Below the pieces are notes generated by a model that saw only the letters and a list, made by a program, of their open reading frames with translations, was not told the DNA's origin and did no database searches. A program made the translations under genes and the position numbers. This document shows positions 46,873-62,542 of a stretch of DNA of 64,000 nt, one piece after another (the first letter of the stretch is position 1; every line of letters starts with the position of its first letter). Origin of the DNA: an uncultured Alphaproteobacteria bacterium (GTDB lineage Bacteria > Pseudomonadota > Alphaproteobacteria > Dongiales > Dongiaceae); NCBI GenBank assembly GCA_963724385.1, contig CAVRUJ010000001.1, forward strand, positions 1,154,896 through 1,218,895, given 5' to 3'.

Positions 46873-46902
46873 GGGCAACTCCGTCGGTGACTGGCAAAAC
46901 CG

Positions 46903-46954
46903 ACGGTAGCCAATATGGCAACCTACGTCAACAGGTCTGTTGCCGATTAGTCAA
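46903..46954 (-). promoter_or_regulatory. candidate PL promoter with operator sites
   Basis: The minus strand reads TTGACG-N17-TACCGT. The spacer contains TTGCCATATTGGCTA, and a second site, TTGCCGATTAGTCAA, lies at 46940-46954. The module is 24/29 identical to PR at 48131-48159. Confidence 0.55.
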
Positions 46955-46968
46955 CAAACCGATGCCAA

Positions 46969-47346: not shown

Positions 47347-47360
47347 GACGCGGTGCCTTC

Positions 47361-48072
47361 CTAAGTGCCATCCATTCCGATCGGCTTGGAGAAGCTGACC
47401 ACGAGAGCTGCGATGACCAGGTCCTCGCCGTCGTCATCCGAGTTGCCATTGGGAACAGGCCACGGCTGCTGATACGCCGGATCAGTCGATTCGGGCCAGA
47501 GCCACGCTTGTCCCTCGACTACTTTGTATCGCTTGATTGTCGCTTCTGTAAGGCCGCTCCGATCGCGCCGATGAACCACGACATAGGCTCCGTTCTGGAT
47601 TTCGAGCGGCTGGCCCGTTTCTCTCAACCGTCGCGTCCCGAGCTCGACCACTCCGACGCAGATAACATAGGAGCCTTCGGGAAATGTTCTGTTCATCGAA
47701 TTGCCGACGACGCGGAGCGCGAAAGCCGGCATGCCGGCATAGGCCGTTCCGATCACCGCCGAGATCTCGTACTGATCACTCGGTGACCATTCTAGAGCTT
47801 CCCGCCATTGGCCGGCCTGCACCGCGCCGACGACCTTGATCGACCTCGGCCGTGCGGATCGCGCCGATTCGTCGGTTGTCGGCGGCCGATGGAAGAGATC
47901 TTCCGGGCGAATTGACAGAGCAGACGCAGAGTCGGGCCATCCACTTGGTGGTGAGGCCGCGATCCGAACGTTCAAGCTTCGATATCTGGGTCTTATCAGT
48001 ACCGACGGCTTCGCCGAGTTCCTGCAGCGTCAAGCCGCGATGCTCACGCCATTCCCTGAGGAAATGATCCAT
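47361..48072 (-). pseudogene. CI/LexA-like repressor (XRE HTH plus S24 peptidase domain) with one frameshift
   Basis: The HTH (LTLQELGEAVGTDKTQISKLERSDRGLT) is in ORF 47776..48168 from the ATG at 48072. ALSIRPEDLF and the S24 part (ALRVVGNSMNRTFPEGSYV) are in ORF 47361..47975. The junction is about 47930-47945. Confidence 0.75.
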
Positions 48073-48081
48073 GCCGCCACG

Positions 48082-48159
48082 TTGCCGGAATGGCAACGTC
48101 GGGTCAGTCGCCAATGCGGCAACTAGATGATTGACGATAGTTGCCGTATTGGCTACCTT
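48082..48159 (+). promoter_or_regulatory. OR-like operator cluster and candidate PR promoter
   Basis: Three sites: TTGCCGGAATGGCAA (48082-96), TCGCCAATGCGGCAA (48108-22) and TTGCCGTATTGGCTA (48141-55). The promoter is TTGACG (48131-36), N17, TACCTT (48154-59). Confidence 0.55.
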
Positions 48160-48166
48160 ATGCAAC

Positions 48167-48403
48167 ATGGTTCTGGCGGACTATCTAAAGACTGAGCATC
48201 TGAGTGCTGCCGAATTCGCGCGCTCGCTGGGCGTCAGCCGCTCGATCGTGCTCCGCTGGGCGAAGAGGGAACGCACACCTCGCGGCGCCCAAATCAAGCG
48301 CATCACTTCCCTGACGGGCGGCCGAGTTACCGCCGCCGACTTCTTCGATGAGCCCGCAGCGAGGCCGCCGCATGATCCGCTGGCTCCGCTCATTGCTTCG
48401 TAA
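48167..48403 (+). CDS. Cro/YdaS-like HTH protein
   Basis: ATG at 48167 (the track start at 48131 is the TTG of the -35 box). It has LSAAEFARSLGVSRSIVLRWAK. It is divergent from the repressor. Confidence 0.65.
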   Translation: MVLADYLKTEHLSAAEFARSLGVSRSIVLRWAKRERTPRGAQIKRITSLTGGRVTAADFFDEPAARPPHDPLAPLIAS

Positions 48404-48466
48404 GGCCTCGGGTATCGATGCCCTCGAACGGCGCCTGGCGCTGATCGCGATGGAGGCGCGCCGGCA

Positions 48467-48694
48467 ATGACGGAGCAGCTCCGCGCCGATGAGGTTGTCC
48501 AGGTCGGCCGCCGGCGGGGCAGGGTGGTCTCCTATCGCGTAACAGATCGCGGCCAACTCTGCCGCATTCAATTCGACACCGACGGCGATCCACGGCCGAG
48601 CGACTACCCGCCCGGCGGTGAATACGTCGAGCTCTTCGCTTCATCCCCCAAAATCTCCCGCGCCGCGCCTGTCCCTGAAGGGAATGTGGCATGA
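48467..48694 (+). CDS. phage hypothetical protein (75 aa)
   Basis: Open frame with an ATG start. No motif recognised. Confidence 0.3.
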   Translation: MTEQLRADEVVQVGRRRGRVVSYRVTDRGQLCRIQFDTDGDPRPSDYPPGGEYVELFASSPKISRAAPVPEGNVA

Positions 48695-49097
48695 GCGCCC
48701 TGGCCTATCTCCGGACTCCTGGGCGGAACAGCTCGGGTTCGGCTGGCCGGAGGAAATCGTCCCGGCGGGACGAAAATCCCCGTCCGCCCGCGACGAAGAT
48801 GGACACCAACGACCTGACCAAGGCGCTCTACCTCGCGCTGCATCGCGCCTTCGACGGGCCGATGCGCCGATCAAGCGCATCGCCCGCATCGCCAACAGCA
48901 ACGAGCGCGCCGCCAAGGACTGGTGGGGCGGCAAGAACCTGCCCAATGCCGTGCACCTGCTGAAACTCATGGCCCAGGTGCCAGAGTTCGCCGGCGAGGT
49001 CCGCCGCCTGACCGGCATGGAAGCCGACCTCGAGCCGGAATTCGCCGCCGCCTTCAACGAGGCGATGCGGGCGTTCTCCAAGCTGAAGGGCCGCTGA
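48684..49097 (+). pseudogene. phage hypothetical protein; reading frame ambiguous in the middle
   Basis: The C-terminal part, PIKRIARIANSNERAAKDWWGGKNLPNAVHLLKLMAQVPEFAGEVRRL, is clear. Between about 48790 and 48860 a second frame (MDTNDLTKALYLALHRAFDGP) looks more protein-like. Confidence 0.35.
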
Positions 49098-49286
49098 GAT
49101 GGCCCGGGGGCATCGATGCCCGCGAGCCGGTGTCCCCACGGTGGGCCCGGCCAATCCGATCACCTTCCAGAAGGGCAAGCTGGACGGTCGGAGGGTAGGG
49201 CCTCTTGCCCCCGCCGCGGATCCGTCGCGGGAATTACGGGAAAAGCCGGGGGATCGCCGGCCCAGAGGGTGGAAGGCCCTCACCGC

Positions 49287-49538
49287 ATGACCGCCACGCT
49301 CCAAGTCTTGCGCGAGCTGATCCGGGTCCATGTCACCGGCCCGGCGGTCGAACTGGCCGAGATCGAGGCCGACACGCGGCTCTCCGAGGATCTCGACTAT
49401 GGCCAGGCAATCGATCTCGCCTATGGGGTCTGGCAGCGCTTCCGGGTCGATATCCCGGCACCGAGGATCCCCGGGAAGACTGTGGCCGAGCTCGTCGCCC
49501 TGATCGAGCAGGCCGCCGGCGACAGGACCGCGGCATGA
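49287..49538 (+). CDS. phage hypothetical protein (83 aa)
   Basis: The ATG at 49287 gives MTATLQVLRELIRVHVTG... No family assigned. Confidence 0.4.
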   Translation: MTATLQVLRELIRVHVTGPAVELAEIEADTRLSEDLDYGQAIDLAYGVWQRFRVDIPAPRIPGKTVAELVALIEQAAGDRTAA

Positions 49539-49624
49539 CCCGCACCTTCGCCGCCATCATCGCCATCGGCCTAGCGATCGGGATCATCGGCCTGGTGCTG
49601 ATCTGGCTGGTGCCCACGCCATGA
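49535..49624 (+). CDS. 29-aa single-TM peptide
   Basis: MTRTFAAIIAIGLAIGIIGLVLIWLVPTP. ATGA overlaps occur at both ends. Confidence 0.3.
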   Translation: MTRTFAAIIAIGLAIGIIGLVLIWLVPTP

Positions 49625-50190
49625 TCCAAACGGACGCTCCCCTCTGGGTCCCCTCTCGGGAGGTGTCCGATGCCGCTGCCGGCCAAGACCTGCCCCCAGG
49701 CGGCCGGCAGCGGCACCCCAACCGCCGCAGGTCGCTGAACCTCCGCTTCCGCTTCCCGGTCGATCCGGAGCGGCCGGGCAGGCGCTATCACCTCGGCATC
49801 GGCTTTTACGGCGAGGAAGGCTGGCGGCCCGGGGAGATCTTCCTTCGCGGCCCCAAGACCGGTTCCGATGCCGACGCACAGCTCGACGACGCGGCCACCT
49901 ACGCTTCGATGCTGATGCAGCACGGCTGCAGGGCCGAAGCGCTGGCCCATGGCAGCACGCGCGAGGCCGTGATGCGCGTGGCGCTGCAAATCGCCGCCGC
50001 GATCGAGGCTTTCGGGCCCGGCGTCGACCTGCAACACCTGGGTGTCGAGCCTGAGCGACGCCGCCATCACCCTCGCGCGAGCGGGCGGCATGGTCGCCTT
50101 TGCCGCCGGCCAGCGGCTTTCCAGCAACCCGCATGCGCTGGCGGGGGCCCCATGGCGAGCCTGGCGGGCGGGCTGGATCGGCGCCGCTAG
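49621..50190 (+). CDS. phage hypothetical protein; only the N-terminal ~130 aa look protein-like
   Basis: ...HLGIGFYGEEGWRPGEIFLRGPKTGSDADAQLDDAATYASMLMQHGCRAEAL... The Arg-rich tail suggests the frame is lost near 50040. Confidence 0.35.
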   Translation: MIQTDAPLWVPSREVSDAAAGQDLPPGGRQRHPNRRRSLNLRFRFPVDPERPGRRYHLGIGFYGEEGWRPGEIFLRGPKTGSDADAQLDDAATYASMLMQHGCRAEALAHGSTREAVMRVALQIAAAIEAFGPGVDLQHLGVEPERRRHHPRASGRHGRLCRRPAAFQQPACAGGGPMASLAGGLDRRR

Positions 50191-50382
50191 TGAAGCGTCA
50201 CACGTGAAACAGGCCGTGGCCGGGGCCGCAACCGCGCCGATTGGACCGAGACGGAAACGCTGCTGCTGCTGCGGCTCATCAAGGAGCCGGCGGTTGCGCT
50301 CAAAGAGGTCGCCCAAATCATCGGCCGCTCACGCGCGGCGGTGACGGTCAAGGCCTGCCGGCTGCGCAAGGAAGCCGCATGA
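50042..50382 (+). pseudogene. phage hypothetical protein with an HTH-like C-terminus in a different frame
   Basis: The GTG at 50042 gives LSDAAITLARAGGMVAFAAGQRLSSNPHALAGAPWRAWRAGW.. After about 50225 another frame reads WTETETLLLLRLIKEPAVALKEVAQIIGRSRAAVTVKACRLRKEAA and stops at 50380-82. Confidence 0.3.
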
Positions 50383-50986
50383 GGCGGGACAGCGCCGAGC
50401 GCGATGCTGATCAGGGCCTCGGCCGCCTGGGCCTGGACGCGACATCCGACCGCTCGCCCGGCTCGCCGTTCGCCCATCTCTGCCAGCACTGGTACGGCGA
50501 GGGGCATTGCCTGGCGGAAGCTATCGCCAATGGCCGCTGCGAGGTGCATCGGGTCAAGAAGGCCGAGGCCGCCGAGGCGGCTAAACCGGCCGCCTCGGCA
50601 GCTGTGCCGCGGCAAGCAACCGAACCCGAAAATCCCCCGGATTCGTCAACCGGTCGCGCTGATCGCGGCCGGAAGCGAGGCCCCAGCAAGGGCGTGCCCG
50701 AAGGGATGCGCCGCTATCACCAGCGCCGGCGCGAGGAGAAAGCGGCCAAGCCTGCGCCCGAAGAGAAACTGGTCCAGTTCGGCGCGGCCCGGCCGGCGCC
50801 GCTGGCGCGGGCCGGCGATCCTATCCGGTGCATGCCTATCCGAAGCCGCCCGAGGAGCGGAAGCTGCTCGACAAGCTGAAGGCCAAGGGCGGCTCGGTCG
50901 AGGCGGCCCGCGCGCTCAAGTGCTGGCGCAACGGCTGGAACTTTCCCGCCATCCGCAATTTGCTGGCGCAAGGGCCGCAGCCGTGA
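50379..50986 (+). pseudogene. phage hypothetical protein, frameshifted
   Basis: The ATG at 50379 overlaps the preceding stop. ...HLCQHWYGEGHCLAEAIANGRCEVH... After about 50820 another frame reads VHAYPKPPEERKLLDKLKAKGGSVEAARALKCWRNGWNFPAIRNLL. Confidence 0.3.
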
Positions 50987-51621
50987 GCACCCAGGGCGAG
51001 ATCTCAGGCTCCGGCAAGCGCGGCTATTACCGCGAGCCGCGGACGCATGACCGGCACAGCATGGATTTCTATATCGAGCCACGTTGGACGATAGATGCGC
51101 TGCTCGGTGCCGAGGCGATCCCGGGCGACGCATGGGACCCTGCCTGCGGCTCGGCACCATCCCCAAGCGCTGACGGATCGCGGGTCCACTGTACGGCACC
51201 GATGCGGCGCCCAGGGGCGACGGCCGGTGCATGACTTCCTGGGCATGGCCCGGCCGCCCGTCTGCGAAGTGGCCTCGATTATCACAAATCCGCCCTACGG
51301 CGTCGCTCAGGAGTTCGCGGAACGCGCGCTGTCGATCGCCACGACAAGGTGGCCCTGCTGGTTCAGTCAAAATTCCCCTACAGCCAGCGACGCCACAAGC
51401 TGTTTACCAACGACGCGCCCGCCGAGCTCTATCTCCTCAGCAACCGACCATCCATGCCCCCAGGGGAGAATGTGTCGCCGGCGAAGTCGAGGCGAAGGGC
51501 GGAAACTCGATACATGTGGATCGTCTGGGATCGCGAGCATGTCGGCCCGACGGAAGCGCATTGGCTGCGCAAGGGCGCGGCGGCGAAGTCGGCACCCGAC
51601 CTGTTCGGGAGCGCGGCGTGA
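50983..51621 (+). pseudogene. N6-adenine-type DNA methyltransferase (NPPY motif), multiply frameshifted
   Basis: The GTG at 50983 sits in a GTGA overlap. Three pieces lie in three frames: GYYREPRTHDRHSMDFYIEPRWTIDALL..DPACGS, then HDFLG...IITNPPYGVAQEFAERAL, then VALLVQSKFPYSQRRHKLF...YMWIVWDREH. Confidence 0.65.
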
Positions 51622-52004
51622 CCGATCTCCCCAACGTGGTCTACGTGGGGGTGGCCGCTGATCGTTGGCAAGCGGGCGGCAACGACGACGTGGCGCGGTT
51701 GCAGCACGGGATCGGCCTGGAGATTAACGGCCCGCTCTATGGGTACGGGCGGCTGGGCTGTATCCGCGCTGTGGCAGTGGCCGCCCTCGCACCTGGTCGT
51801 CGCTCGCGAATTGTATCGGCGGAGGAATTCGGCGACATGGTCGGCGATGATGAAAGGCGCTGCAAAAGGCAGGCGATCGGCACGGGAGCGCAGACGAGAC
51901 GCGTCGTCGGCTTCGAATCCGGTTCAGCCTCTCGCGCCGCTCTCAAGATCGGCGATCTCTGCACCGGCGAACTATTTAATCTCGGCGGGAACGACGCCCC
52001 GTGA
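51618..52004 (+). CDS. phage hypothetical protein (frame uncertain)
   Basis: The GTG at 51618 sits in a GTGA overlap and gives VTDLPNVVYVGVAADRWQAGGNDDVARLQHGIGLEINGPLYGYG... Later parts may be frameshifted. Confidence 0.25.
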   Translation: MTDLPNVVYVGVAADRWQAGGNDDVARLQHGIGLEINGPLYGYGRLGCIRAVAVAALAPGRRSRIVSAEEFGDMVGDDERRCKRQAIGTGAQTRRVVGFESGSASRAALKIGDLCTGELFNLGGNDAP

Positions 52005-52079
52005 TGCTTCAAGCTCAAGAACGCGAACGGCCGCCGCTGGACCGGTCGCCTGAGGGCCGGCAAGAGCGCGCTCAGGCTG

Positions 52080-52265
52080 ATGAGCGAGTTCATCGAGGCT
52101 CCGGACGACGTCCGGCTCGACCGGCTGCTCGAGGCCTTCGTCGCCTGGAAGCGATCCGGCCAAGATCGGCGCGGCCTGTGTGTCGAGCCGGGCCTGTCGC
52201 GGCTCGATGCCTGGGGCAAGCGCAAGATCGAGGAACGCGAGCGCGCCGCGGAGCAGGGCCGATGA
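52080..52265 (+). CDS. small phage protein (61 aa)
   Basis: MSEFIEAPDDVRLDRLLEAFVAWKRSGQDRRG... Its stop overlaps the primase ATG (ATGA). Confidence 0.4.
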   Translation: MSEFIEAPDDVRLDRLLEAFVAWKRSGQDRRGLCVEPGLSRLDAWGKRKIEERERAAEQGR

Positions 52266-53361
52266 GCCGCTATGATGCCGCCGAGCTGGACGAGATCCGG
52301 GCCCGCGTCCCTCTACCCGAGCTGATCGCGAGCCTCGGCGTCGAGCTGAAGAAGAAGGGCCGCGAATACCTGGGCCTCTGTCCGTTCCACAGCGAACGCA
52401 CGCCCAGCTTCACCGTGGTGCCCGGCCAGTTCTGGCATTGCTTCGGCTGCGGCGCGCATGGCGACGCGATCAGCTTCCTGATGCGGGTCAAGGGCATCGA
52501 GTTCACGGCCGCGGTGGAAACCCTGGCCGATCGGTCGGGCGTTAGGCTCGGCCGGATGACCGAGGCCGAAAAGGCCCAGGTGGCGGCGCGCGCTCGCTTG
52601 GAGGCGGAGGCCGCGCGCCGAGAGCGCGCCCAGGCGACGGCGGACGCCCGGGAGATCTGGGCCACGTGCCATCCCGCCGGCGGCACTCTCGTCCAAACTT
52701 ACCTGGAATCCCGCGGTATCAACCCCGAGGCGATCGGCGGCATCCCGCCGACGCTGCGCTACCACCCGGCGCTGCGCCTGGCGAAGGGCGACCATCGCCC
52801 GGCCATGGTGGCGGCGGTGCAAGATCCGGCCGGCGCCATCGCCGCAGTCCACCGGACCTTCCTCGCCGCGGATGGGCAGGCAAGGCGGACGTGGAGCGGC
52901 CCAAGCGCATGTTTGGCCCCGTCTGGCAGGGCGCGGTGCGCCTGACGGCCAGGGCGGCGCACATGCTGATCGCCGAGGGGATCGAGACGGCCTGTCGGTC
53001 CTGGTATCCCGGCGCAAGACCGGCGGGCGAGCATTGGCCCTCCTACGGGGTCTGGGCCGCGCTCAGCCTCGGCAACATCGCCGGCTCGGGCGACGACGAC
53101 TATTTCGGCAAACCGCATCGGGCCAAGCGCAAAGGAGTACGTTTGCCGACCGTGGTCCCGGACATGAGCGGCCCGGGGTCGTGCTGCCGCCGGGACGAAG
53201 CGAGTAACGGTCTGCGCCGATGCGGACAACCGGGATCCCGAAGCGGCCGAGGCGCTGCTGTAGCGCGCGGCCGCACGCTTGGAGGCGCGCGGGATATGTG
53301 TGCGATCGCCCGGCCGCCAGCTGGCATGGATTTCAACGACCTGCTGGCGGGTGCGGCATGA
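52262..53361 (+). pseudogene. DNA primase (CHC2 zinc finger plus Toprim), frameshifted at least 3 times
   Basis: LCPFHSERTPSFTVVPGQFWHCFGCGAHGDAISF is in the first frame. KRMFGPVWQGAVRLT...MLIAEGIETA (Toprim) and ...ARPPAGMDFNDLLAG are in other frames. Confidence 0.7.
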
Positions 53362-53766
53362 TCTATTTCATTCGCATCGGCAAAGCCGGCCCCGTGAAAA
53401 TCGGTTTTTCTACAAATGTACAATCCCGGATTCTCGCGCTCTGCAGACCTCCAATTCCGAGCCCTTGGTCTTACTGCGGAAATAGAGGGCGACCAAAGTA
53501 CAGAAGCATGGTGCCACGAACATTACCAGCACCTGCGATTAAGGGGAGAGTGGTTCAGATATTGTCCGACGATGCTGTCCGTGTCGCCGGCGCCCACGGC
53601 GCCGAGACGGTGGCGCAGCTGCAGCCATCCGGGCTGCGGGAGTTTGCTGGAGTGGCCCGGAGATTATCCTGACGTTTGCGACGCCCATCACCCTCTCGGG
53701 TCGCAGCGCATCCGCCTCGTTCAAACGACGGCCGGCCTCTGGCGGCTAAGAATGGCTTCAGCATGA
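53358..53766 (+). pseudogene. T5orf172 / GIY-YIG-like domain protein, two frameshifts within about 100 nt
   Basis: MIYFIRIGKAGPVKIGFSTNVQSRI (frame 1), ALQTSNSEPLVLLRK (frame 2) and IEGDQSTEAWCHEHYQHLRLRGEWFRY (frame 3). The frame-3 stop overlaps the next ATG (ATGA). Confidence 0.5.
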
Positions 53767-55396
53767 CGGGCACCGGCGACGTTTCCCGGGCCATCGAAGA
53801 GGCGGCGCTGCCGCCCGACAATCGCGAGCTCGCCAAGGAACCGCGCAACGACATCGGCAACGGTCGACGCTTGCTGGCCCGCCACGGCCAGGACTTGTTC
53901 GACGTGGCAGAGGCGGGCTGGCACGTCTGGAACGGCAAGCGCTGGGAACTGAGCGCGGGCAGCGTGGCGGCCCTGGGCCCGAGGTGTTGCGCCTGGCCCA
54001 CTTGACGGCCCTTGGCATCGCGGACGAGGCCGACGCGGTCAGCAAAAGCGCGCCGAAACTTCCGCCGGCCGAAGACGAAAGCGAGGAGGCGAAGCGGCTC
54101 CGCGAGCTGCATGACGCACTTCTGGCTGGCAACCAATCATCGCAAGTTCGGCATCCTCAGCGGCAACCAAGGCAAGATCGAGGGGATGTTGAAGACGACG
54201 GCGCCCTATCTCCGACGCAAGCCCGACGACTTCGATCGCGATCCCTATCTCTTCAATTGCGACAACGGCACGTTACGCCTCGGCGCCGACCAGGTGGAGA
54301 TCAAGGCCCACGCCCGCAGCGACCTGATCACGCATCTATCGCCGACCGTCTTCGATCCAGAAGCCTCCTGTCCGCTATTCCGCAAATACCTCGACCGCGT
54401 GCAGCCCGATCCCAACCAGCAACGCTTCCTGCAGGTCTGGTTCGGCTATTGCCTGTCGGGCCTGATCGTCGAACAGGTCCTGGCCATCCACCATGGGACG
54501 GGATCCAACGGCAAGTCGGTGCTGCTGGCACTCCTAATGTTCATTTTCGGCGATTACGCCGCCACGGTCCCGGTCGAGTCTTCATGCAGGAGCGCGAAGC
54601 GCGCGGCGGCGGCGAGGCGACGCCTGATATCGCCCGCCTGCCAGGCAAGCGCCTGGTCGTGGTCAGCGAGCCCGAGAAGAACGCGCGGCTTGCTGAATTC
54701 GTCGTCAAGACCGCAACCGGTGGAGGCAAGATGAACGCCCGCCGGCTGTTCGAGGGACAGTTCGAATTCGAGCCCGTGCTCAAGCTCAACATCGACTGCA
54801 ACGCGAAGCCGATCATCACCGGCAACGATGAAGGGATCTGGCGGCGCGTGCTGATGGCCGACTGGCCGGAGTTCATTTCCAAGGCGGAGGCGGACAAGCA
54901 CCTCATCGACAAGCTCAAGGGCGAGGCGAGCGGGGTGCTCAACTGGCTACTCGACGGCTGGCGCATGTATCGCGAGGACGGCCTTTGGCTGCCGGACAGC
55001 GTGCTCGCCGCGACGGAGGAATACCGGGCCGAGAGCGACCCATTGCGCCAGTTCATCACCAGCTGCCTCAAGAAAGCGCCTGGCCAACGGATCGCCCGCG
55101 GGCGGCTCTATGCCGCCTATGAGAAGTGGTGCAGGGGCAGCGGGCTCGAACCGATGAAGGGCAACGCCTTCGGCCGGGCTATGACGCAGGTCGGCATCCG
55201 GCGCGAGACGATCGGCGTGACCTTCTATTGCGACGTTCGAACTGGTCGAGGCAGCGATGGAACAATCTGGAGGAATGGAGCAATCCGGCCTTCTGGCCCG
55301 ATCCGCCGCCGCGATAGCGCTGTTTGGAGACGGCCCGGGGCCATTTGGAGGAAAATTGCTCCATTCCTCCAGATTGTTCCACCGACAAGTGGTTGA
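53763..55396 (+). pseudogene. P4/D5-type primase-helicase (NTPase), frameshifted at least 3 times
   Basis: NDIGNGRRLLARHGQDLF..WHVWNGKRWE, then DPYLFNCDNGTLRL...FLQVWFGYCLSG...HHGTGSNGKSV (Walker A), then RLVVVSEPEKNARL...KLNIDCNAKPIITGNDEGIWRRV. These lie in alternating frames. The 3' end reads through the iteron field, so the true stop is uncertain. Confidence 0.7.
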
Positions 55397-55523
55397 TGGC
55401 AAACGACTTTGGAGCATCGGAGCAATTGGAGCAATTCCGCGCGCGCACGCGAGACATAGAAGGGCACTTTTCATGAGTTCTCTCATGTGTATGGGGAATT
55501 CCTCCAATTCCTCCATTCCTCCA
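55259..55523. repeat. iteron field with a 26-bp perfect inverted repeat (candidate phage replication origin)
   Basis: GGAACAATCTGGAGGAATGGAGCAAT (55259-84) has its exact reverse complement at 55355-80. There are 7 forward TGGAG/CGGAG and 5 reverse CTCCA cores in 8-9-nt tandem spacing. A lower-GC segment carries CATGAG ttct CTCATG (55472-87). Confidence 0.6.
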
Positions 55524-55543
55524 GTAAGGGAGAAGCAGCGAAC

Positions 55544-56121
55544 ATGCCGATCGACCGTAGGGGTAAAACCACCCCGAGCCAGCCCCAAATCGACGCTGTG
55601 GCCGGCATCGTGTTCCAGATCGCCAGCTGTTCGGAAGGGGGCGCTCGCCGTTGGGCGCTGCAGATCATCAAGGCCTATGCGGCGGCCGGAGCGCCGGTTG
55701 CGGCGCCAGCGAACGGCGAACACCGGATCAACGGGCAACGCGCCAGCCTGACCCGGGAGCAAATCAAGGACATGTTGCGCGAGGCCGCCCTGACGCTCCG
55801 CAGGCTCCGGCATTCAACCGCGATCGGCCCATGGAACTCCGCGCGGCATGGCCCGACGTGGTTCGAGCGACCTGGGATGCCTATGAGCGCGACGGCCGCG
55901 AGACCCCGGATGGCCCCGCGACGCCAGGCCAGATCGCAGCGCTGGACCGCGTGCTGCCCTGGCTCTTTTTGCTGGGGCCCAAAAACCGAGTGCTGGTCTG
56001 GGCCCGCGCGGAACGGGTTCCCTGGCGCAAGCTGGAGCGTCGGTTTGACCGGAATGAGCGGACGCTGCTGCTTTGGTACGACGCCGCGCTAGAGATAATT
56101 CGAACCAGAGCCAAAATATAG
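55544..56121 (+). pseudogene. phage regulatory/HTH-like protein (DUF6362-like from memory), one frameshift
   Basis: ATG at 55544 with AAGGGAGAAG upstream. After about 55800 the second frame reads ELRAAWPDVVRATWDAYERDGRETPDGPATPGQIAALDRVLPWLFLL..RVPWRKLERRFDRNERTLLLWYDAALEII. Confidence 0.45.
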
Positions 56122-56136
56122 TTGCGGCTTCTGCGC

Positions 56137-56156
56137 GAAATCTATATGTAGATTTC
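56137..56156. promoter_or_regulatory. perfect palindrome in an AT-richer spacer ahead of the packaging genes
   Basis: GAAATCTA tatg TAGATTTC, an 8-bp perfect arm pair. Confidence 0.35.
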
Positions 56157-56244
56157 CCTATCGTGAACAGCATCGCGCCCGCCCGGCGACTCGGCCGCGG
56201 CGGGCGTCGCATTTCTGGCCCCTTTCATCCCTGGAGATAGCCAT

Positions 56245-56904
56245 GTGACCGCGCCCGTCACGATCTCGATCCGTGCCGATGTGAAGGGTCTCCAGCGCCA
56301 GCTCGACCGTCTGGCTAACAGCCAACTGCCCTTCGCCACGGCACTGGCGCTGACTGCCCTGGCCAAGCGGGTGGCCGCTTCCGAGACTGCGGCGCTCTCC
56401 ACTGTCTTCGAGAACCCGACTGCCTTCACGAAGCGAGCCTTTGGCGTCCTGCCGGCGCGCAAGGCGACGCTCACGGCGGTGGTCTTCGCCAAGGATATCC
56501 AGGCCGCTTACCTGGCCCCGTCGGAGCAGGGGACACCGCAGTATCTAGGCAAAGGCCGGCGGATCAGGACGCCGGTCAATATCAACACCAACGTTTCGGG
56601 CAACATCCCCAAGGGCTCAATCCAACGATTGCTTGCTCGGCCCGGCGTATTCCTCGGCACGATCAATGGCGTGAATGGTCTGTGGCAGCGCGTCGGTTCG
56701 CCGAAGCGCGCCGGGCGACGGACACGCCGCATTGCTGGCAACGAGCGGCCACACAAACTTCGCCTGCTCGTCGCCTTCACCAGGCCGAAGCCGATCTCGA
56801 CGCGGCTCGAATATCATCAGCGGGCGCGTGCCGTCATCGCTGCCGGCTTTGATGAGGAATTCAGCGTGGCAATGCGCCGCGCGCTTGCCACCGTTCGCCT
56901 CTAA
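56245..56904 (+). CDS. phage protein resembling the minor tail protein Z (gpZ) family
   Basis: GTG at 56245 with GGAGA upstream. The frame is intact for 219 aa. DVKGLQRQLDRLANSQLPFATALALTALAKRVA..., ...IPKGSIQRLL... and GLWQRVG resemble the lambda Z pattern (recollection, unverified). Confidence 0.45.
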   Translation: MTAPVTISIRADVKGLQRQLDRLANSQLPFATALALTALAKRVAASETAALSTVFENPTAFTKRAFGVLPARKATLTAVVFAKDIQAAYLAPSEQGTPQYLGKGRRIRTPVNINTNVSGNIPKGSIQRLLARPGVFLGTINGVNGLWQRVGSPKRAGRRTRRIAGNERPHKLRLLVAFTRPKPISTRLEYHQRARAVIAAGFDEEFSVAMRRALATVRL

Positions 56905-57015
56905 ACAATTTGGGTCCTTCCTGGCGACCAAATCCCCGCGGGCATTTCGCGTGCGCGGTTTTCCACTGTCGCGCATAAGAAAATCCGCCTTCTGTTACCC
57001 ACTGAGGTTTTTGCT

Positions 57016-57601
57016 ATGTCCGCTCTGACGGCCGAGCGTCCCGACGGCCGCATCCTCGCCAACAAGCGGGAGTTGGCGCGCATCCTGCGCTGCTCGTTGC
57101 CGACCTTGGCGAAGCTGATCGACGATAATCCCGACTTCCCGGTCGTGGGCCGCGGATCGAACGGCGTCGAATGGCAGTTCGACGCCGAGCGCGTTATCGA
57201 GTTCATCCGGGAGAAGCGGGACAAGCCCGCGACCAGCGCAACAATCGCTCGAGGAGAAGGCCGCCTATTTCGGCCAGTTCTCGCTGCCGATCGACGACGT
57301 GGTGCCGGAAGAGGCGAAGGGTCTGAGCCCGACGCAGCGGGCCAGCGTTGCGAAGGCCCGCCTGATCGAACGCAAGCTCGCGGTCGAGACGGGCATGCTG
57401 GTGCCCGTCGCGGAGCTGCGTCAGATACTACAGGGCGCGTTCATGAAGCTGGGCCGCTCGCTCGACGGACTGCCGGTCCTGCTGGCGCGCCAGCATGGCC
57501 TACCGGAGGAGGTGGCCAGGGCCATGCGCTCTTCGATCGACGACTTCCGCCGGACCTTCGTCAACGAGCTCGCCGACGTCCTACGGGACGACGAAGCATG
57601 A
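57016..57601 (+). pseudogene. terminase small subunit (HTH N-terminus), one frameshift
   Basis: ANKRELARILRCSLPTLAKLIDDNPDFPVV..EWQFDAERVIEFIREKRD, then after about 57240 a second frame reads QSLEEKAAYFGQFSLPIDDVVPEEAKGLSPTQRASVAKARLIERKL... Confidence 0.6.
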
Positions 57602-59679
57602 GCGAACTCGCCGAGGCGCGGTACTACGCGCCGGCGCGGCTGCTCCGCGAGAGTGTCGCGGCGTTCCTGCCGGCCGACCGGCTCAACGTGGCCGAGCATG
57701 CCGCCCAGCATCGCTGGCTCGCCAACGAAGGCGGCGGCTACGTTGGTCGCTGGCAGCACAGCTGGGTGCCTTACGGGGTCGAGCCGCAGGAGGCGCTCAC
57801 CTCGCTCGATCACATGACCGTCGCCGTGGTCGGGCCCGGACAATCGGCCAAGTCGAGCTTCGGAGAGAACTGGCTCTTCCGGAACATCGATATCGATCCG
57901 GCGGACATGCTGATCTACATGCAGACCGACCAGGCCGTGGAGGCCTTCGTCAAGGGCCGGATCAACCCGATGATCGAGCAGCACCCGCGGATGCGGAACA
58001 AGCTCGGTCTCAATGCGGTCGACGATAGCCTGCACTTCAAGCGGTTTCGGGTATGCGGGTCGAGTTCCTCTCGGCCACGCATTCCAACCTGATCAGCAAG
58101 TCAGCGCCGAGGATCTGGGGCGACGAGATCGACGCCTATGGTGAAGGCCTGGGCGACGTGAAGGCGCTATGGGACGTGCGCCGGCAGACCTTCGGGCGCG
58201 AGTCGATGCTGCTGGTCACGAGCCATCCCGATCTGGCCCGCGGTCTCGATCCCGAGACTTGGACCGCCGGCGTGATGGCGATCTATGCCGACAGCGATCG
58301 CCGGACCTGGTGGTGGCCGTGCCCGGAATGCGGGGCCTGGTCCTCGCCGGTTCCGATCGCCTCGCGGGTGATGCGGATCACCTATCCGGAAGAGGCGCCG
58401 CTGGATGAGGTCGAGCAGGCCGCCCGCCTGCTCTGCCCTGTCTCGGGCTGCCTGATCGAGGATCGACAGCGCCGGGCGATGAACTTGGCCGGCCGCTGGA
58501 TCGGGCTCGGCCAGGAGATCGCTGAGGACGGTACGATCACCGGCGAGCGGGTCAAGCGCGACACGGCCGGGTTCTGGATCGTCGGTCCGATGAGCCCCTT
58601 CGCGCTCGGCGGGATTGGCGGTCTGGCCCGCGCGCGGGCCAAGGCCGAGCGGGAGCTGGCGACGTTGGGCGACGAGGAGAGCCTGCGCCAGGTCATGGTC
58701 AAGCAGTGGGGCGAGCCCATGTCCCGCCGCGCTCTGTCGGTTCGGTCGATGCCTCGACGCTGGCGGAGCGTGCCGACGGCGAGCATGGCCTGAAGCTCGG
58801 TGAGGTCGCCGAGGGCGTGCGCTTCCTCACTGGCGGGATCGATGTCCAGGCCGCGCATTTCGAGGTGATGGTTCGCGGCTGGGGTGAGGCGGGCGAGTCC
58901 TGGATCGTCGACAAGTATCGTCTGCCGGCCGATCCGGCGATCGCATCGGAGGACTGGGACAGGCTTCTGGCCGTCTGCTGACGAAACGCTACCCGCTCGC
59001 CGACGGTAGCGGGCGCGTCATGGCGATCCGGGCGATCGGCTACGATTTGGCGGTGTGCCCGGCGTGACGGCACAAGCCTATGACACGTTCGCGCGATTCC
59101 GCCGGCGGGGTGACGCGCGCAGCTACGGCAAGCTCGACGGGCGCGACGTTCTCGTCGCTGTTGCCGACCAAGGGCAATGCCGGTCCGCTCTCGGCCCGGC
59201 TACAAGTGGTCTATCCGGACTCGGCCCGCAAGGATCGCAAGGTTGCCAGAACTGGCACCGTGCCACTCGGCCTGTTCAACGCGAACCAGTTCAAGGATGA
59301 CCTGGCCGGGCAGCTCGGCCGGGCCATGCCCGGCACTGGTACGTGCATTTCCCGCCGGCGTTGCGCTCCAAGGAGAAGCCGCATGTCTTCTTCGAGCAGC
59401 TCGTCGCCGAGAAGCGCGATGCCCCGGTCGCTGGTCGAAGCCGCACCAGGGGATCCGCAACGAGGCGGCCGACCTGATGGTGATCTCCACGCCATCGCCC
59501 ATCTCCATGGTCTGGGCGGATCGACTGGGCCAAGCCGCCGGCGTGGGCGTCGCCCTGGGACAAGAATTCGATGGTTTCGGCCGGATCGAGGTGGCGCCTG
59601 GCGCGCCGGCGGTGATGCCGCCGCCCTCCGCTCCGGCCGAAGCTTTAAGAAGCGCTCAATCTTGAGCCGGCTTGCATAG
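57598..59679 (+). pseudogene. terminase large subunit, lambda GpA family, frameshifted at least 5 times
   Basis: The ATG at 57598 overlaps the terS stop. Pieces lie in ORFs 57016-58092, 58053-58793, 58706-58981 and 59055/59080/59177-59679. Examples are VVGPGQSAKSS, WWWPCPECGAWS, FLTGGIDVQAAHFEVMVRGWG and NANQFKDDLAGQL. Confidence 0.75.
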
Positions 59680-59686
59680 AGGCCCG

Positions 59687-59950
59687 ATGTATAACCCATC
59701 GACCAGCATCTTCGCCGGAATGTCGACCCAGGCGCTGCAGACCGCGTTGGCGCAGGCGCAGCAGGCCTATATCGATCTTTCGACGGGCGCGAAGGGTGAA
59801 TCGTACAGCTACACCCAAGGCCAGGGCAGCAAGGCCATCACCTATACCCGCGCCAACCTCGGCGCGCTGACCGGGCTGATCAAGCAGCTCCAGGCTCAGC
59901 TCGGCATTGTGCGGCATCCCCGCCACGCTCTCTCGATCGGGTTCCGCTGA
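59687..59950 (+). CDS. gpW-family head-tail joining protein
   Basis: ATG at 59687 with GAGG upstream. MSTQALQTALAQAQQAYIDLSTGAKGESYSYTQGQGSKAITYTRANLGALTGLIKQLQAQLG is typical gpW. Confidence 0.7.
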   Translation: MYNPSTSIFAGMSTQALQTALAQAQQAYIDLSTGAKGESYSYTQGQGSKAITYTRANLGALTGLIKQLQAQLGIVRHPRHALSIGFR

Positions 59951-61627
59951 TGGCTGCCCCGTTTGCCCCGCGCAAGCAGGTGCAGATCCTCGGCGCCGAT
60001 GGCCATCCGCTGCCGCCCCGGCATCCTGGTGCCGCTGGGCGCAAGCTAGCTCTCGCCGGCGGCGCGGGTCATGGTCGGGCGTGCCCTATGACGCCGCCGA
60101 CGTCTGGTCGGATCACATGTCGGCGTGGATGCCGATGCTGTGGTCGGCCGACAACGTCCTCAACCCCTATCGCGACCGGATCGTCGCCCGGACGCGCGAT
60201 GCGGTGCGCAACGACGGTTGGGCGAGGGTGCCGTCACGCGCGTGCTCGACAACGCGATGGCGAATTTCCGGCCGCTCGCAAGCCCGACTATCGTGCGCTG
60301 GCGTCTATAGCGGGATTCAGACGTTCGACGCGGTCTGGGCCGACGAATATGGCCGCGCGCTCAAGGCATGCTGGCGGACCTGGGCCAACGATCCGGGACG
60401 CTGGTGTGACGCCAGCGCGCCATGACTGTCTCGCAGATGTCGTCTGCATTCCGTCACTATCTGGTCGACGGCGAAGGGCTGGGTATCCTCTCTTGGCTGC
60501 GAGAGGGTCGGACAGGTGCTGCTTGGTATGCCACCGCGCTCCAGGTAGTTGATCCGGACCGGCTCGCAATCCCCAGCTCGTGTTCGACGATCGGACCTGC
60601 GCGGCGGGTCGAGGTCGATCGCTTCGGCGCCGCGATGAGCTACTGGATCCGCGCCGCGCTCAGGGCGACTGGTGGGCGGCAGCGGATGCGTGCATTGGGA
60701 GAGGATCCCGCGCGAGACCGCCTGGGGCCGTCCTATCGTGGTGCATGACTTCGATCGCGAGCGGGCCGGCCAGCACCGCAGCAGCGCCGGGACGCTGGCG
60801 CCCGTGCTGAAGCGGCTGAAAATGCTGATTCGGTACGATAGCGCGGAACTCGACGCCGCGATCATCAACGCGATGTTCGGCGCCTACGTCGAGAGCCCGT
60901 TCGATCCGGAAAAGGTGGAGGAGGCGCTGACCAGGCGCAGACGACAATGCTCGGCAGCACCAGAAGCATCGCTCTGACTCGCACAGGGACCGCGACCGGA
61001 TGCTCGGCGGGGCGCGGCTCCCGCTGTTCTACCCCGGCGAGGCGATCAGGGCCGTCACGGCCGAGCAGCCGACCGGACGATTCAGGGGTTCGAGAAGGCG
61101 ATGCTGCACAACGTCTCGGCCGGGCCGGAACGTCGGCGCAGCAGGTCCCGAACGACGGGGCGGACATGGACTACTGCTCGGCCCGAGGCGCGCTGCTGGA
61201 GGTCCTGAAGACGATGGGCCGGCGTCGCGAGGATTTTGCGCCGGGCTTCGGCCAGCCGATCTACGCCGCGTTCGTCGAGGAGTGCATCGAGCTGGACGAA
61301 CTGCCGATGCCGGCGGGCACACCAGATTTCTCGGCGTTCCGCACGGCCTACGGCGATGCTCACTCGATCGGCCCTGGGAAGGGCTGGATGGATTCGGTCG
61401 GCCGAACCCGACGGCGCGATCCTTCGGATGGACGCCGGTCCTGTCGACGCTCGACGAGGAATGCTGCCGACCAGGGGCTGAACCGGAAGCCTGCCTGGAT
61501 CATCGCCGCGATGGAAATCCAGATCTTCAAGGATCGCGGCATCCCAGGGCTCGACCTCGGCCGAGCATGCAAACCCGAGCCGCCTGCATCGCCCCAGTCG
61601 CAGAAGAGTCAATCTCTCCCGGCGTGA
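59950..61627 (+). pseudogene. portal protein, lambda family, frameshifted at least 5 times
   Basis: The ATG at 59950 sits in a TGATG overlap. YDAADVWSDHMSAWMPMLWSADNVLNPYRDRIVARTRDAVRNDGWA and further pieces are scattered over ORFs 59907-60425, 59950-60552, 60422-60748, 60672-60977 and 60947-61627. Confidence 0.7.
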
Positions 61628-62542
61628 CCGCCCCCGCCCCCCCCCCCCCCCCTGGCCCCTCCGGTACATCAGCGGCTTCGCACATCTGGCCCAACGGATC
61701 TTCAACCTCCCGCTCGCGATCCTTCCCGACAAGGCCGAGAAGATCATGGCGGCACTCGCCGAGCGGCTCGGCGTGACCTCGATGTTCCCGGTCGCCGGAT
61801 CGAGCATGCCGCGGCAGCATTGGGCCGACGATTTCACCGTCGACGAGGCGATGAGCGCTCGCATCCGACCACGGCTACGACCTCGCCGCCAGCATCGCGA
61901 TGATACCGGTGACGGGCACACTGGTGCAAAAGACCGGCAGCCTGCGCCCCTGGTCCGGGATGACCGGCTATGACGGCTTACGGCAGGCCTTCCTGACGGC
62001 GCTAGATGATCCGGCGATCGAGGCGGTCTGTCTCAACGTCGACGCCGGGCGGTAAAATCGCCGGTCTGTTCGACCTGGTCGACACAATCTATAAAGCGCG
62101 CGGCGAAAAGCCGGTATGGGCGATCCTGAACGGAAACGCTTGTCGGCCGCCTACGCGATCGCCTCGGCGGCCGATCGGATCATCGTGCCGCGCACCGGCG
62201 CGTCCGGCTCGATCGGGGTCATCGCATGCACGTCGACTGGTCGCAAGCGATCGACAAGGCCGGCCTCAAGGTGACGCTGATCGCCTACGGCAAGAAAAAG
62301 ACCGATGGCCGCCCAGAGCTGCCGCTCGCGGATGAGGCCAGGAAGCGCTGACAGGCCGACATCAACGCGATGGGCGAGCTGTTCACCGATACGGTCGCGC
62401 GCAACCGGTGGCCGCCGCGTCGGGGATGCGCGGACACGAGGCGGGGACGTTCCTGGGCGCGAACGGCGTCGCGGCGCGGCTCGCCGATCAAGTGATGGCG
62501 CCCGACGCCGCCTTTCGGGCCTTGCTCGCCGAGCTGGGCTGA
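61624..62542 (+). pseudogene. S49-family (SppA/ClpP-like) prohead protease, frameshifted at least 4 times
   Basis: The following pieces lie in alternating frames: LAQRIFNLPLAILPDKAEKIMAALAERLG, IAMIPVTGTLVQKTGSLRPWSGMTGYDGLRQAF..AIEAVCLNVDAGG, KIAGLFDLVDTIYKARGEKPVWAILNGNA, SAAYAIASAADRIIVPRTGASGSIGVIA and ADINAMGELFTDTVARN. The start is uncertain (see the poly-C finding). Confidence 0.65.
61637..61652 (+). repeat. 16-nt poly-C homopolymer tract
   Basis: Counted directly: CCCCC G C16 TGG, starting 10 nt after the portal stop codon. Confidence 0.95.

What the first reader, a model, noticed from the sequence alone, without database searches (positions are those of the whole stretch)
55259..55523. 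Iteron field with a perfect 26-bp inverted repeat at the 3' end of the primase-helicase gene, a candidate phage origin
GGAACAATCTGGAGGAATGGAGCAAT (55259-84) is repeated as its exact reverse complement at 55355-80, with a 70-bp spacer. The core TGGAG(G/C)AAT recurs in 8-9-nt tandem arrays. Forward copies start at 55268, 55276, 55325, 55346, 55410, 55418 (CGGAG) and 55427. Reverse copies (CTCCA) start at 55359, 55367, 55502, 55511 and 55519. That is 12 cores in 265 bp, where under 1 is expected by chance. Between the last two arrays lies a lower-GC stretch with CATGAG-ttct-CTCATG (55472-87), a possible unwinding element. P4-type primase-helicases bind iterons of this kind next to their own gene.
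Basis: partly seen in the sequence, partly recalled or inferred. Interest (0 to 1): 0.6.

Follow-up and report, generated by a model that had tools for sequence, protein, structure and literature searches.

The report
Prophage replication origin behind its helicase
The repeat field is very probably the replication origin of a decayed prophage, built like the known origins of staphylococcal SaPI islands and Lactobacillus phage A2, so it is a well-supported but ordinary feature.

Summary
A perfect 26-nt inverted repeat lies at 55259-84 / 55355-80. There are 13 copies of TGGAGSAAT (8 exact) in 55258-55523. All 8 exact copies in the window lie here (0.83 expected), and this is the only such cluster in the 5.03-Mb genome.

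The field sits at the 3' end of a frameshifted D5_N/SF3 helicase gene with a C-terminal winged helix. A DnaG-type primase gene lies upstream. The prophage is decayed: terminase and portal are fragmented, while host genes are intact.

I examined 91 loci encoding 33-52% identical helicases. In 84 of them an 8-mer recurs at least 4 times around the helicase stop, against 1/91 and 3/85 in control regions. The repeat sequence differs between loci, but the layout is shared: opposed arrays with ~9-nt spacing around a ~67-nt lower-GC spacer.

Phage A2's GenBank record annotates rep_origin on exactly this structure. The helicase profile matches SaPI5 PriRep5 (PDB 7OLA), whose C-terminal domain binds such iterons.

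Verdict: an iteron origin for a self-loading helicase-initiator, now probably inactive. It is a new member of a known kind. In GC-rich relatives the conserved central element is an alternating purine/pyrimidine tract, here CGCGCGCGCACGCG at 55438-51. The CATGAG palindrome is not a conserved feature. No replication or binding test was possible.

The parts
52001..53361 (+). DnaG-type primase gene, split over two frames (52001-52945 and 52666-53361). It corresponds to 'pri' in a pri-rep-ori module.
   Evidence: Pfam Zn_ribbon_DnaG 7.7e-30 and DUF7146 6.1e-25. phrog_510 'DNA primase' continues into the second frame.
54012..54734 (+). First part of the helicase-initiator gene (D5_N domain), in frame 0. 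The frame breaks near 54590.
   Evidence: Pfam D5_N 2e-13. phrog_1156 profile positions 442-597. The frame switch is visible in the three-frame translation.
54590..55243 (+). Second part of the helicase-initiator gene: the C-terminal half of the SF3 ATPase plus the C-terminal winged-helix domain (about 55070-55240).
   Evidence: phrog_1156 positions 597-820, 1e-59. Pfam Pox_D5 and RFX_DNA_binding at residues 350-403. Family profile matches 7OLA, SaPI5 PriRep5, at 3.3e-15. AF2 model pLDDT 83.6. Foldseek hits 7OLA and the RFX DNA-binding domain 1DP7. GC by codon position is 0.64/0.46/0.86.
55244..55396 (+). Unmatched 51-codon tail of the present helicase reading frame. It runs through module A to TGA 55394-96 and does not look like coding sequence in this frame.
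   Evidence: No homologue aligns beyond about 55241-55301. GC by codon position is 0.58/0.70/0.50, so there is no third-position GC excess. The other two frames resemble homologue tails, and one of them stops at TAG 55315-17.
55255..55284 (+). Module A left arm: three forward iterons (TGGAACAAT 55258, TGGAGGAAT 55268, TGGAGCAAT 55276).
55285..55354 (.). Module A spacer, 70 nt and 69% GC. An extra forward copy, TGGAGGAAA, lies at 55346.
55355..55384 (-). Module A right arm: three reverse iterons (55355, 55363, 55373). It is the reverse complement of the left arm: 26 of 26 perfect, 29 of 30 overall.
55410..55435 (+). Module B forward array: TGGAGCATC, CGGAGCAAT, TGGAGCAAT, with a period of 9.
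55436..55497 (.). Module B central spacer, 62 nt and 55% GC. This is the proposed melting and helicase-entry region. It contains the alternating Pu/Py tract CGCGCGCGCACGCG (55438-51), CATAGAA, a T-run, and CATGAG-N4-CTCATG (55472-87).
   Evidence: In 79 related loci the equivalent gap has a median of 67 nt and a GC 11-15 points below the locus. In GC-rich loci it holds the longest alternating tract in 37 of 47 cases.
55498..55523 (-). Module B reverse array: three identical ATTCCTCCA copies (55498, 55507, 55515).
55544..56092 (+). Downstream ORF of unknown family, with AAGGGAGAAG 9-18 nt before its ATG. It is not part of the origin and bounds it on the right.
   Evidence: No Pfam or PHROG hit. 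No homologue in any of the 91 related loci.

Best explanation
The field 55255-55523 is the iteron-type replication origin of the prophage that occupies roughly 40-64 kb of the window. It belongs to a pri-rep-ori module.

Proposed mechanism, inferred by analogy with SaPI Rep/PriRep proteins:
1. The SF3 helicase encoded just upstream acts as its own initiator. Its C-terminal winged helix (encoded at about 55070-55240) binds the 9-nt iterons TGGAGSAAT.
2. The iterons are arranged in opposed arrays, so helicase rings assemble on each side of the 62-nt spacer 55436-97.
3. That spacer has lower GC and a pyrimidine-purine alternating tract. It is distorted and melted there, and two helicases load in opposite directions.
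4. The separate DnaG-type primase then primes synthesis.

Module A (the 26-nt perfect inverted repeat, 55259-84 / 55355-80) is a second set of the same binding sites. It overlaps the end of the helicase gene, as it does in the closest relative.

In the assembly as given, the helicase, primase, terminase and portal genes are all frame-broken. The origin is therefore most likely a well-preserved relic that cannot fire without an intact helicase supplied in trans.

Shown: the sequence anatomy, homology, family-wide conservation of the architecture, and an annotated origin in a homologous phage. Inferred: binding, melting, bidirectional loading and present inactivity.
For: Uniqueness:
- The repeats are unique in the window and in the genome.

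The adjacent gene:
- It is a D5_N/SF3 helicase with a C-terminal winged helix.
- Its family profile hits SaPI5 PriRep5, 7OLA, at E = 3.3e-15. The match runs through the ATPase into the CTD, chain residues 558-748.
- 7OLA is PriRep5, and deleting its CTD alters binding to ori DNA in EMSA.

The SaPI paradigm (PMC9371898; bioRxiv 10.64898/2026.10.17.759575):
- pri lies upstream, and rep carries a winged helix.
- ori lies immediately downstream.
- Iterons face each other across a melting region, and the field spans about 300 bp.

Phage A2:
- GenBank AJ251789 annotates rep_origin 32208-32717 over the 3' end of its homologous primase-helicase gene.
- The sequence there has forward ACGGGAGGAT copies, an AT-rich spacer, then reverse copies.

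Survey of homologous loci:
- An 8-mer recurs at least 4 times in 84/91 loci around the helicase stop, against 1/91 inside the gene and 3/85 in a region 0.9-1.5 kb downstream.
- The first copy lies within -15 to +25 nt of the stop in 73/83 loci.
- The median is 8 copies, the median span is 259 nt and the modal spacing is 9 nt. The window has 13 copies, 265 nt and 8-10 nt.
- Repeat sequences differ between loci (TGGAGGGTT, TTGACCGAT, TGGACAGTT, GTGACGGAT and others).

Link to the helicase rather than the downstream genes:
- The window's downstream genes have no homologue in any of the 91 loci.
- Iteron similarity tracks identity of the C-terminal domain after controlling for the ATPase part (partial r = 0.198, 0 of 2000 permutations reach it).

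The spacer:
- Median length is 67 nt, and GC is 11-15 points below the locus.
- It holds the longest alternating Pu/Py run in 37 of 47 GC-rich loci, against 21% expected from its length.
Against: - There is no direct evidence of binding, melting or replication.
- The helicase gene here is frame-broken near 54590, and probably again near 55238. The primase, TerL and portal genes are also broken. The origin therefore probably does not function in this genome.
- The covariation signal is weak. The ATPase part also correlates with iteron similarity (partial r = 0.142, 27 of 2000), so much of the signal is shared ancestry.
- One distant helicase (L104, 36% identical) uses the same TGGAGSAAT core without an obviously more similar winged helix.
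- In the present frame, module A lies inside the ORF rather than downstream of it.
Confidence: 0.85

Rival explanations
1. The repeats are operator or promoter-control sites for the downstream (late or packaging-side) operon. They would be bound by a transcription regulator, not by the helicase.
For: - The last array ends 20 nt before the ATG of the next gene (55544), and a ribosome-binding site lies between them.
- Opposed short repeats are also typical of operators.
Against: - No sigma-70-like promoter was found on the + strand in 55100-55700.
- The downstream gene is not conserved in any of the 91 loci that keep the repeat field.
- The field tracks the helicase stop codon: the first copy is within -15 to +25 nt of it in 73/83 loci.
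I did not test that note.
Confidence: 0.06
2. The field is a packaging site (cos or pac) recognised by the small terminase subunit.
For: - terS and terL lie 1.5 kb downstream, at 57016 onward.
- Lambda cosB also contains short repeated terminase-binding sites. This is from my own knowledge.
Against: - Two ORFs (55544-56092 and 56245-56904) separate the field from terS.
- In phage A2 the same structure sits at 32.2 kb of a 43.4-kb linear record, far from the record's ends, and is annotated rep_origin.
- In AmM-1 it lies about 3 kb inside the right end of the record.
- The field co-occurs with the helicase whatever gene lies downstream.
Confidence: 0.03
3. The field is a centromere-like partition or incompatibility site, or a decoy kept by the host. 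As a decoy it would titrate the helicase of superinfecting related phages, a 'Per'-type phage-encoded resistance, and would no longer serve as a working origin.
For: - The repeats look undecayed. The inverted repeat is perfect over 26 nt, and the three ATTCCTCCA copies are identical. Meanwhile the surrounding genes carry many frameshifts.
- Phage origins cloned on plasmids are known to confer resistance, as reported for A2 and for Sfi21-type phages. This is from my own knowledge.
Against: - No ParA/ParB-type genes were seen among the ORFs scanned in 40-64 kb.
- Per phenotypes are reported for multicopy plasmids, whereas this is a single chromosomal copy. This is from my own knowledge.
- 265 nt is a small target, so the absence of mutations is weak evidence of selection.
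- A decoy role would in any case derive from the field being an origin.
Confidence: 0.04

Closest known systems
SaPI replication origins with Rep/PriRep self-loading SF3 helicases (SaPI1, SaPI5; structure 7OLA)
   Same: - Gene order is pri, then rep, then ori.
- The SF3 helicase has a C-terminal winged helix.
- The origin lies immediately 3' of the helicase gene.
- Short iterons point in opposite directions on either side of a central melting region, and the field spans about 300 bp.
- The window's helicase family profile matches PriRep5 at E = 3.3e-15, and the model matches it by fold at E = 8.6e-6.
   Different: - The iterons are 9 nt (TGGAGSAAT), not 5-6 nt.
- The host is GC-rich (65% GC) rather than Staphylococcus.
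- The central region is not AT-rich in absolute terms. It is 55% GC and carries a GC-rich alternating Pu/Py tract.
- The primase is a separate DnaG-type (CHC2 zinc-ribbon) protein.
- The element is a full prophage with terminase and portal genes, not a satellite.
- The helicase is frame-broken.
- Sequence identity to PriRep5 is low: the single-sequence phmmer search found nothing.
Origin of Lactobacillus casei phage A2 (GenBank AJ251789, rep_origin 32208-32717)
   Same: - The primase-helicase ORF35 is 40% identical over the ATPase and winged-helix part.
- The annotated origin overlaps the 3' end of that gene.
- It shows forward ACGGGAGGAT copies, a central spacer, then reverse copies.
   Different: - The iteron sequence differs.
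- The spacer is truly AT-rich (GTATATATATAAAAAC...).
- The primase and helicase are fused in one 770-aa protein.
- That the A2 annotation rests on experiments (Moscoso and Suarez 2000) is my recollection. I did not read the paper here.
Satellite phage P4 alpha protein with ori and crr
   Same: The helicase is of the D5/P4-alpha family. From my own knowledge, its C-terminal winged helix binds short repeated octamers (type I iterons).
   Different: As I recall, P4 uses two separated repeat regions (ori and crr) several kb apart, not one field abutting the gene. The alpha protein carries its own primase domain. I could not check this in the library (one search found nothing).
Alphaproteobacterial phages AmM-1 (Aurantimonas) and RR1-A (Rhizobium)
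   Same: - Their helicases are 42% identical.
- AmM-1 has the same two-module field directly after the gene: AGGGAGGC repeats and a GCGCATGCGCGCGC tract in the spacer.
- RR1-A has GGACAGC repeats with a GCGCATGCGC tract.
   Different: - No origin is annotated in either record.
- In RR1-A the field lies two genes further downstream, not at the helicase stop.

Membership tests
Iteron origin of a self-loading SF3 helicase-initiator (SaPI / phage A2 type) | The adjacent gene encodes an SF3 (D5/P4-alpha-like) helicase. | tested here: met
   Pfam D5_N 2e-13 and Pox_D5 1.7e-6. phrog_1156 1e-59. Profile hits to 7OLA, ASFV C962R and poxvirus D5. Fold matches to the same proteins.
Iteron origin of a self-loading SF3 helicase-initiator (SaPI / phage A2 type) | The helicase carries a C-terminal winged-helix DNA-binding domain. 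| tested here: met
   In the AF2 model (pLDDT 83.6), residues 157-213 form strand-helix-helix-beta-hairpin. Foldseek aligns 71 columns to the RFX DNA-binding domain 1DP7 at rmsd 1.9. Pfam RFX_DNA_binding gives 4e-4, below the gathering score.
Iteron origin of a self-loading SF3 helicase-initiator (SaPI / phage A2 type) | The repeat field lies immediately 3' of the helicase gene. | tested here: met
   Helicase homology ends at about 55243 and the first iteron is at 55258. The same placement holds in 73/83 related loci.
Iteron origin of a self-loading SF3 helicase-initiator (SaPI / phage A2 type) | At least two iterons lie on each side of a central easily melted region and point in opposite directions. 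| tested here: met
   Three forward copies (55410-35), a 62-nt spacer of 55% GC, then three reverse copies (55498-523). The spacer has lower GC than its flanks but is not AT-rich in absolute terms.
Iteron origin of a self-loading SF3 helicase-initiator (SaPI / phage A2 type) | A primase is encoded upstream of the helicase or fused to it. | tested here: met
   A Zn_ribbon_DnaG plus DUF7146 gene at 52001-53361, frame-broken.
Iteron origin of a self-loading SF3 helicase-initiator (SaPI / phage A2 type) | The helicase binds the iterons specifically, and the fragment supports helicase-dependent replication. | not testable with these tools
   Only indirect evidence exists. Iteron similarity correlates weakly with C-terminal-domain identity (partial r = 0.198), and a homologous phage has an annotated origin.
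Phage cos/pac packaging site | The site lies directly upstream of the small-terminase gene or at the ends of the mature genome. | tested here: not met
   Two ORFs and 1.5 kb separate the field from terS at 57016. In A2 the homologous field is internal to the linear record.

The most novel reading that the evidence does not exclude
In GC-rich hosts, origins of this helicase family may not use a classical AT-rich unwinding element. Instead they would use a GC-rich alternating purine/pyrimidine tract as the site where the self-loading helicase first distorts and opens the DNA. Such a tract is CG/CA-rich, Z-DNA-prone and has the maximum number of pyrimidine-purine steps. It reaches 36 nt in relatives and is CGCGCGCGCACGCG here.

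The tract is clearly enriched and well positioned:
- 43/91 loci have a run of at least 12, against 8/91 and 6/85 in the controls.
- In 37 of 47 GC-rich loci the longest run lies in the inter-array gap, against 21% expected.

I found no description of it in the papers searched. Its role is untested.
Probability: 0.3. Interest if true: 0.5.

Novelty: new member of a known kind. Interest (0 to 1): 0.3.

Why it matters
For this genome, the result annotates a 270-nt stretch of otherwise unannotated DNA as the origin of a cryptic prophage. It also explains a striking perfect palindrome.

More generally, the survey gives a simple rule for phages, prophages and satellites that encode this helicase type. 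Look at the stop codon of a D5/P4-alpha-type helicase for opposed arrays with ~9-nt spacing around a ~67-nt spacer. That locates the origin and reads off the element's iteron specificity.

The origin–helicase pairs differ in iteron sequence between loci. They could be tested as a source of mutually independent replicons for GC-rich Alphaproteobacteria.

The alternating Pu/Py tract is a testable candidate for how such origins open in GC-rich DNA.

Tried and rejected
- Single-sequence search of PDB sequences with the helicase part found nothing. Only the family profile reached PriRep5.
- Single-protein scans found only distant relatives, at most 48% identical: 8 loci in genome contigs, 1 in viral contigs and 5 of 60 related genomes. 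No near-identical intact copy of this prophage was found, so the ancestral helicase C-terminus and stop codon cannot be fixed.
- Scanning viral and metagenome contigs for the 17-mer TGGAGGAATGGAGSAAT returned mostly chance hits and an (ATTCC)n satellite, L227. Only L104 was a real helicase-linked field.
- Rfam gave only sub-threshold hairpin look-alikes: MIR169_3 at 22 bits against a gathering score of 70, and Plastid-psbA-3 at 21 bits against 48. An RNA element was rejected.
- The promoter and terminator scan found no + strand promoter and no intrinsic terminator in 55100-55700. A terminator or attenuator role for the 26-nt hairpin was rejected, since no T-run follows it.
- The winged-helix versus iteron covariation test gave only a weak signal that is largely confounded by ancestry. 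I do not rest the case on it.
- A literature search for P4 ori/crr details found nothing in the held library.
Full report

Yes. The sequence at 55259-84, GGAACAATCTGGAGGAATGGAGCAAT, recurs as its exact reverse complement at 55355-80, with 70 nt between the arms. The repeat finder extends it to 30-nt arms with 29 of 30 positions complementary.

TGGAGSAAT occurs exactly 8 times in the 64-kb window, and all 8 lie within 55268-55523. Dinucleotide shuffles give 0.83 copies, and none of 100 shuffles reaches 8. Allowing up to 2 mismatches gives 13 copies:
- forward: 55258, 55268, 55276, 55346, 55410, 55418, 55427
- reverse: 55355, 55363, 55373, 55498, 55507, 55515

In the whole 5.03-Mb, 65%-GC genome there are 72 exact copies. 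This is the only place where three or more lie within 150 nt of each other.

Some small corrections apply:
- Two degenerate outer copies (55258 and 55373) were missed.
- Spacing is 8-10 nt.

**2. Anatomy**

The field has two modules.
- Module A is three forward copies (55258-84), a 70-nt GC-rich spacer with one extra forward copy at 55346, and three reverse copies (55355-81).
- Module B is three forward copies (55410-35), a 62-nt spacer (55436-97) and three identical reverse copies (55498-523).

The module B spacer is 55% GC, against 64-68% in the neighbouring genes. It contains, in order:
- the 14-nt alternating purine/pyrimidine tract CGCGCGCGCACGCG (55438-51)
- CATAGAA
- a short T-run

The next gene starts at 55544, behind AAGGGAGAAG.

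**3. Context**

Upstream lie two replication genes:
- a DnaG-type primase gene at 52001-53361 (Zn_ribbon_DnaG 7.7e-30, DUF7146)
- a D5_N/SF3 helicase gene (D5_N 2e-13, phrog_1156 1e-59, Pox_D5/RFX-like C-terminus)

Both are split across frames. The helicase switches frame near 54590.

The wider region is a prophage:
- integrase at 40228-41448
- S24-type repressor at 47361-47975
- terS and GpA-type terL in at least three pieces from 57016
- a portal fragment at 59907

Host genes elsewhere in the window give full-length domain matches, for example EPSP_synthase at profile positions 2-417 of 417 and a four-domain 834-aa dehydrogenase. The frame breaks are therefore local to the prophage. This agrees with another note of the scan.

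**4. Where does the helicase gene end?**

Homologues align only to about 55241-55301. The present frame runs on to TGA 55394-96, through module A. Those last 51 codons have GC by codon position of 0.58/0.70/0.50. The real coding part has 0.64/0.46/0.86. The tail therefore does not look like coding sequence in that frame.

The other two frames resemble homologue tails:
- One reads ...FELVEAAMEQSGG..., close to the TELVVE tail of L011.
- The other reads ...PDPPPR and stops at TAG 55315-17, close to the Pro-rich acidic tails of L001, L010 and L011.

If the ancestral stop was at 55315-17, module A would straddle the stop. The closest relative L001 is built that way: forward copies at -75 and -67 and reverse copies at +37 and +55 relative to its stop. 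This is inference only.

**5. Comparative test**

I collected 91 loci encoding helicases 33-52% identical to the window's. They come from genomes, IMG/VR contigs and three GenBank phages.
- In the 600 nt around the helicase stop, the most frequent 8-mer (both strands) occurs at least 4 times in 84 of 91 loci.
- The controls give 1 of 91 inside the helicase gene and 3 of 85 in a region 0.9-1.5 kb downstream.
- The first copy lies within -15 to +25 nt of the stop in 73 of 83 loci.
- The median is 8 copies, the median field span is 259 nt and the modal spacing is 9 nt. The window's 13 copies, 265 nt and 8-10 nt fit these norms.

The repeat sequence is locus-specific: TGGAGGGTT, TGGGAGGAT, TGGAAGGA, TGGACAGTT, TTGACCGAT, GTGACGGAT, GCGAGGGT and others. 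The layout is constant: opposed arrays around a gap with a median of 67 nt, whose GC is 11-15 points below that of the locus.

The window's two downstream genes have no homologue in any of these loci. The field therefore goes with the helicase gene and not with whatever follows it.

**6. Anchors in known biology**

Phage A2:
- Its GenBank record annotates rep_origin 32208-32717 over the 3' end of ORF35. ORF35 is a primase-helicase 40% identical to the window's.
- The sequence there has forward ACGGGAGGAT copies, an AT-rich spacer and reverse copies.

SaPI5 PriRep5:
- A profile of 43 family members matches PDB 7OLA at E = 3.3e-15. The match runs from the ATPase into the C-terminal domain. 7OLA is SaPI5 PriRep5.
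- An AlphaFold model of the window's 54602-55243 (pLDDT 83.6) ends in a strand-helix-helix-hairpin unit.
- Foldseek matches the model to ASFV C962R, to 7OLA (E = 8.6e-6) and, for the last 71 residues, to the RFX winged-helix DNA-binding domain (rmsd 1.9).

For SaPIs, the papers state the following (PMC9371898 and bioRxiv 10.64898/2026.10.17.759575):
- The origin lies immediately downstream of rep.
- It spans about 300 bp.
- It has iterons in opposite orientation around a central melting region.
- The iterons are bound by the winged helix of the C-terminal domain without ATP.
- One hexamer presumably assembles on each side.

**7. Who binds the iterons?**

By analogy, the helicase's winged helix does. 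I tried a covariation test. After dereplication to 53 loci, iteron similarity correlates with C-terminal-domain identity when ATPase identity is controlled for (partial r = 0.198, 0 of 2000 permutations reach it). The converse correlation is also present (r = 0.142, 27 of 2000).

This support is weak, and shared ancestry explains much of it. One distant helicase (L104, 36% identical) uses the same TGGAGSAAT core.

**8. The central element**

In relatives, the conserved feature of the gap is lower GC plus an alternating purine/pyrimidine tract. The particular CATGAG palindrome is not conserved.
- A run of at least 12 occurs in 43 of 91 origin regions, against 8 of 91 and 6 of 85 controls. Runs reach 36 nt.
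- In 47 GC-rich loci the longest run lies inside an orientation-switch gap in 37, against 21% expected from the gap's length.
- In low-GC hosts the tract is (TA)n. In GC-rich hosts it is GC-rich, for example GCGCATGCGCGCGC.
- CATG is about three times over-represented in 49 dereplicated spacers: 32 observed against 11 +/- 3.2.

I found no description of this in the papers searched. Its function is untested.

**9. Rivals**

- Operator or promoter role. This is unlikely. There is no + strand promoter, the downstream gene is not conserved and the field is anchored to the helicase stop.
- cos or pac role. This is unlikely. Two ORFs and 1.5 kb separate the field from terS, and in A2 the homologous field is internal to the linear genome and is annotated as the origin.
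- Known RNA family. No match reaches threshold.
- Decoy or partition role. This cannot be excluded, but it would be secondary to the field being an origin.

**10. Verdict**

The field is the iteron origin of a pri-rep-ori replication module of the SaPI/A2 type. It sits in a decayed prophage of a GC-rich bacterium.

It is a new member of a known kind. It probably cannot fire in this genome because its helicase is frame-broken. No experiment on binding or replication exists for this element.

Noticed in passing
window 45000-64000, compared with 1-40000: Frame breaks are confined to the prophage: primase, helicase, terL in at least 3 pieces, and portal. Host genes give full-length domain matches (EPSP_synthase 2-417 of 417; an 834-aa DAO/GCV_T protein). 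Another note of the scan (e1-3835803) already flags this. I could not tell real decay from a local assembly problem without reads.
   Followed up: partly
window 55438-55451, and the inter-array gaps of L001, L012, L013, L017, L024, L031-L048 and others: Long alternating purine/pyrimidine tracts, up to 36 nt (for example CATGCGCATGTGCGCGTGCGCGCATGCGCGCGCACG in L043), sit in the gap between opposed iteron arrays in GC-rich relatives. In low-GC relatives the tract is (TA)n. CATG is about 3-fold enriched in these gaps.
   Followed up: partly
L018 (Rhizobium phage RR1-A) 8150-8470: In RR1-A the iteron field (GGACAGC repeats around GCGCATGCGC) is not at the helicase stop. It lies two genes further downstream, in the 8078-8503 intergenic gap. 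The next gene starts directly at the helicase stop.
   Followed up: no
L010 2216-2480 and L012 2190-2450: Two different repeat families share one field: TGGAGGGTT with TGGATAGTT in L010, and GCGATAGTT with GCGAGGCT-type repeats in L012. This may indicate two binding specificities or a recent specificity switch.
   Followed up: no
L104 (IMGVR_UViG_3300022693_001177) 460-760: A helicase only 36% identical over the aligned 101-aa stretch is followed by a field with the same TGGAGSAAT core as the window. It may be a case of convergent or retained iteron specificity.
   Followed up: partly
window 55236-55317: The helicase C-terminus may have been in other frames. Frame 0 reads FELVEAAMEQSGG, like the tail of L011. 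Frame 1 reads PDPPPR and stops at TAG 55315-17, like the Pro-rich tails of L001, L010 and L011. That would put the ancestral stop inside module A's spacer.
   Followed up: partly
window 43204-44508 (- strand): A 434-aa DUF5131 (PF07505) protein (3.1e-82) is encoded between the integrase and the repressor region of the prophage.
   Followed up: no
L227 4750-5010: An (ATTCC)n-like satellite array in a metagenome contig matched the 17-mer search by chance. It is unrelated to the helicase family.
   Followed up: yes
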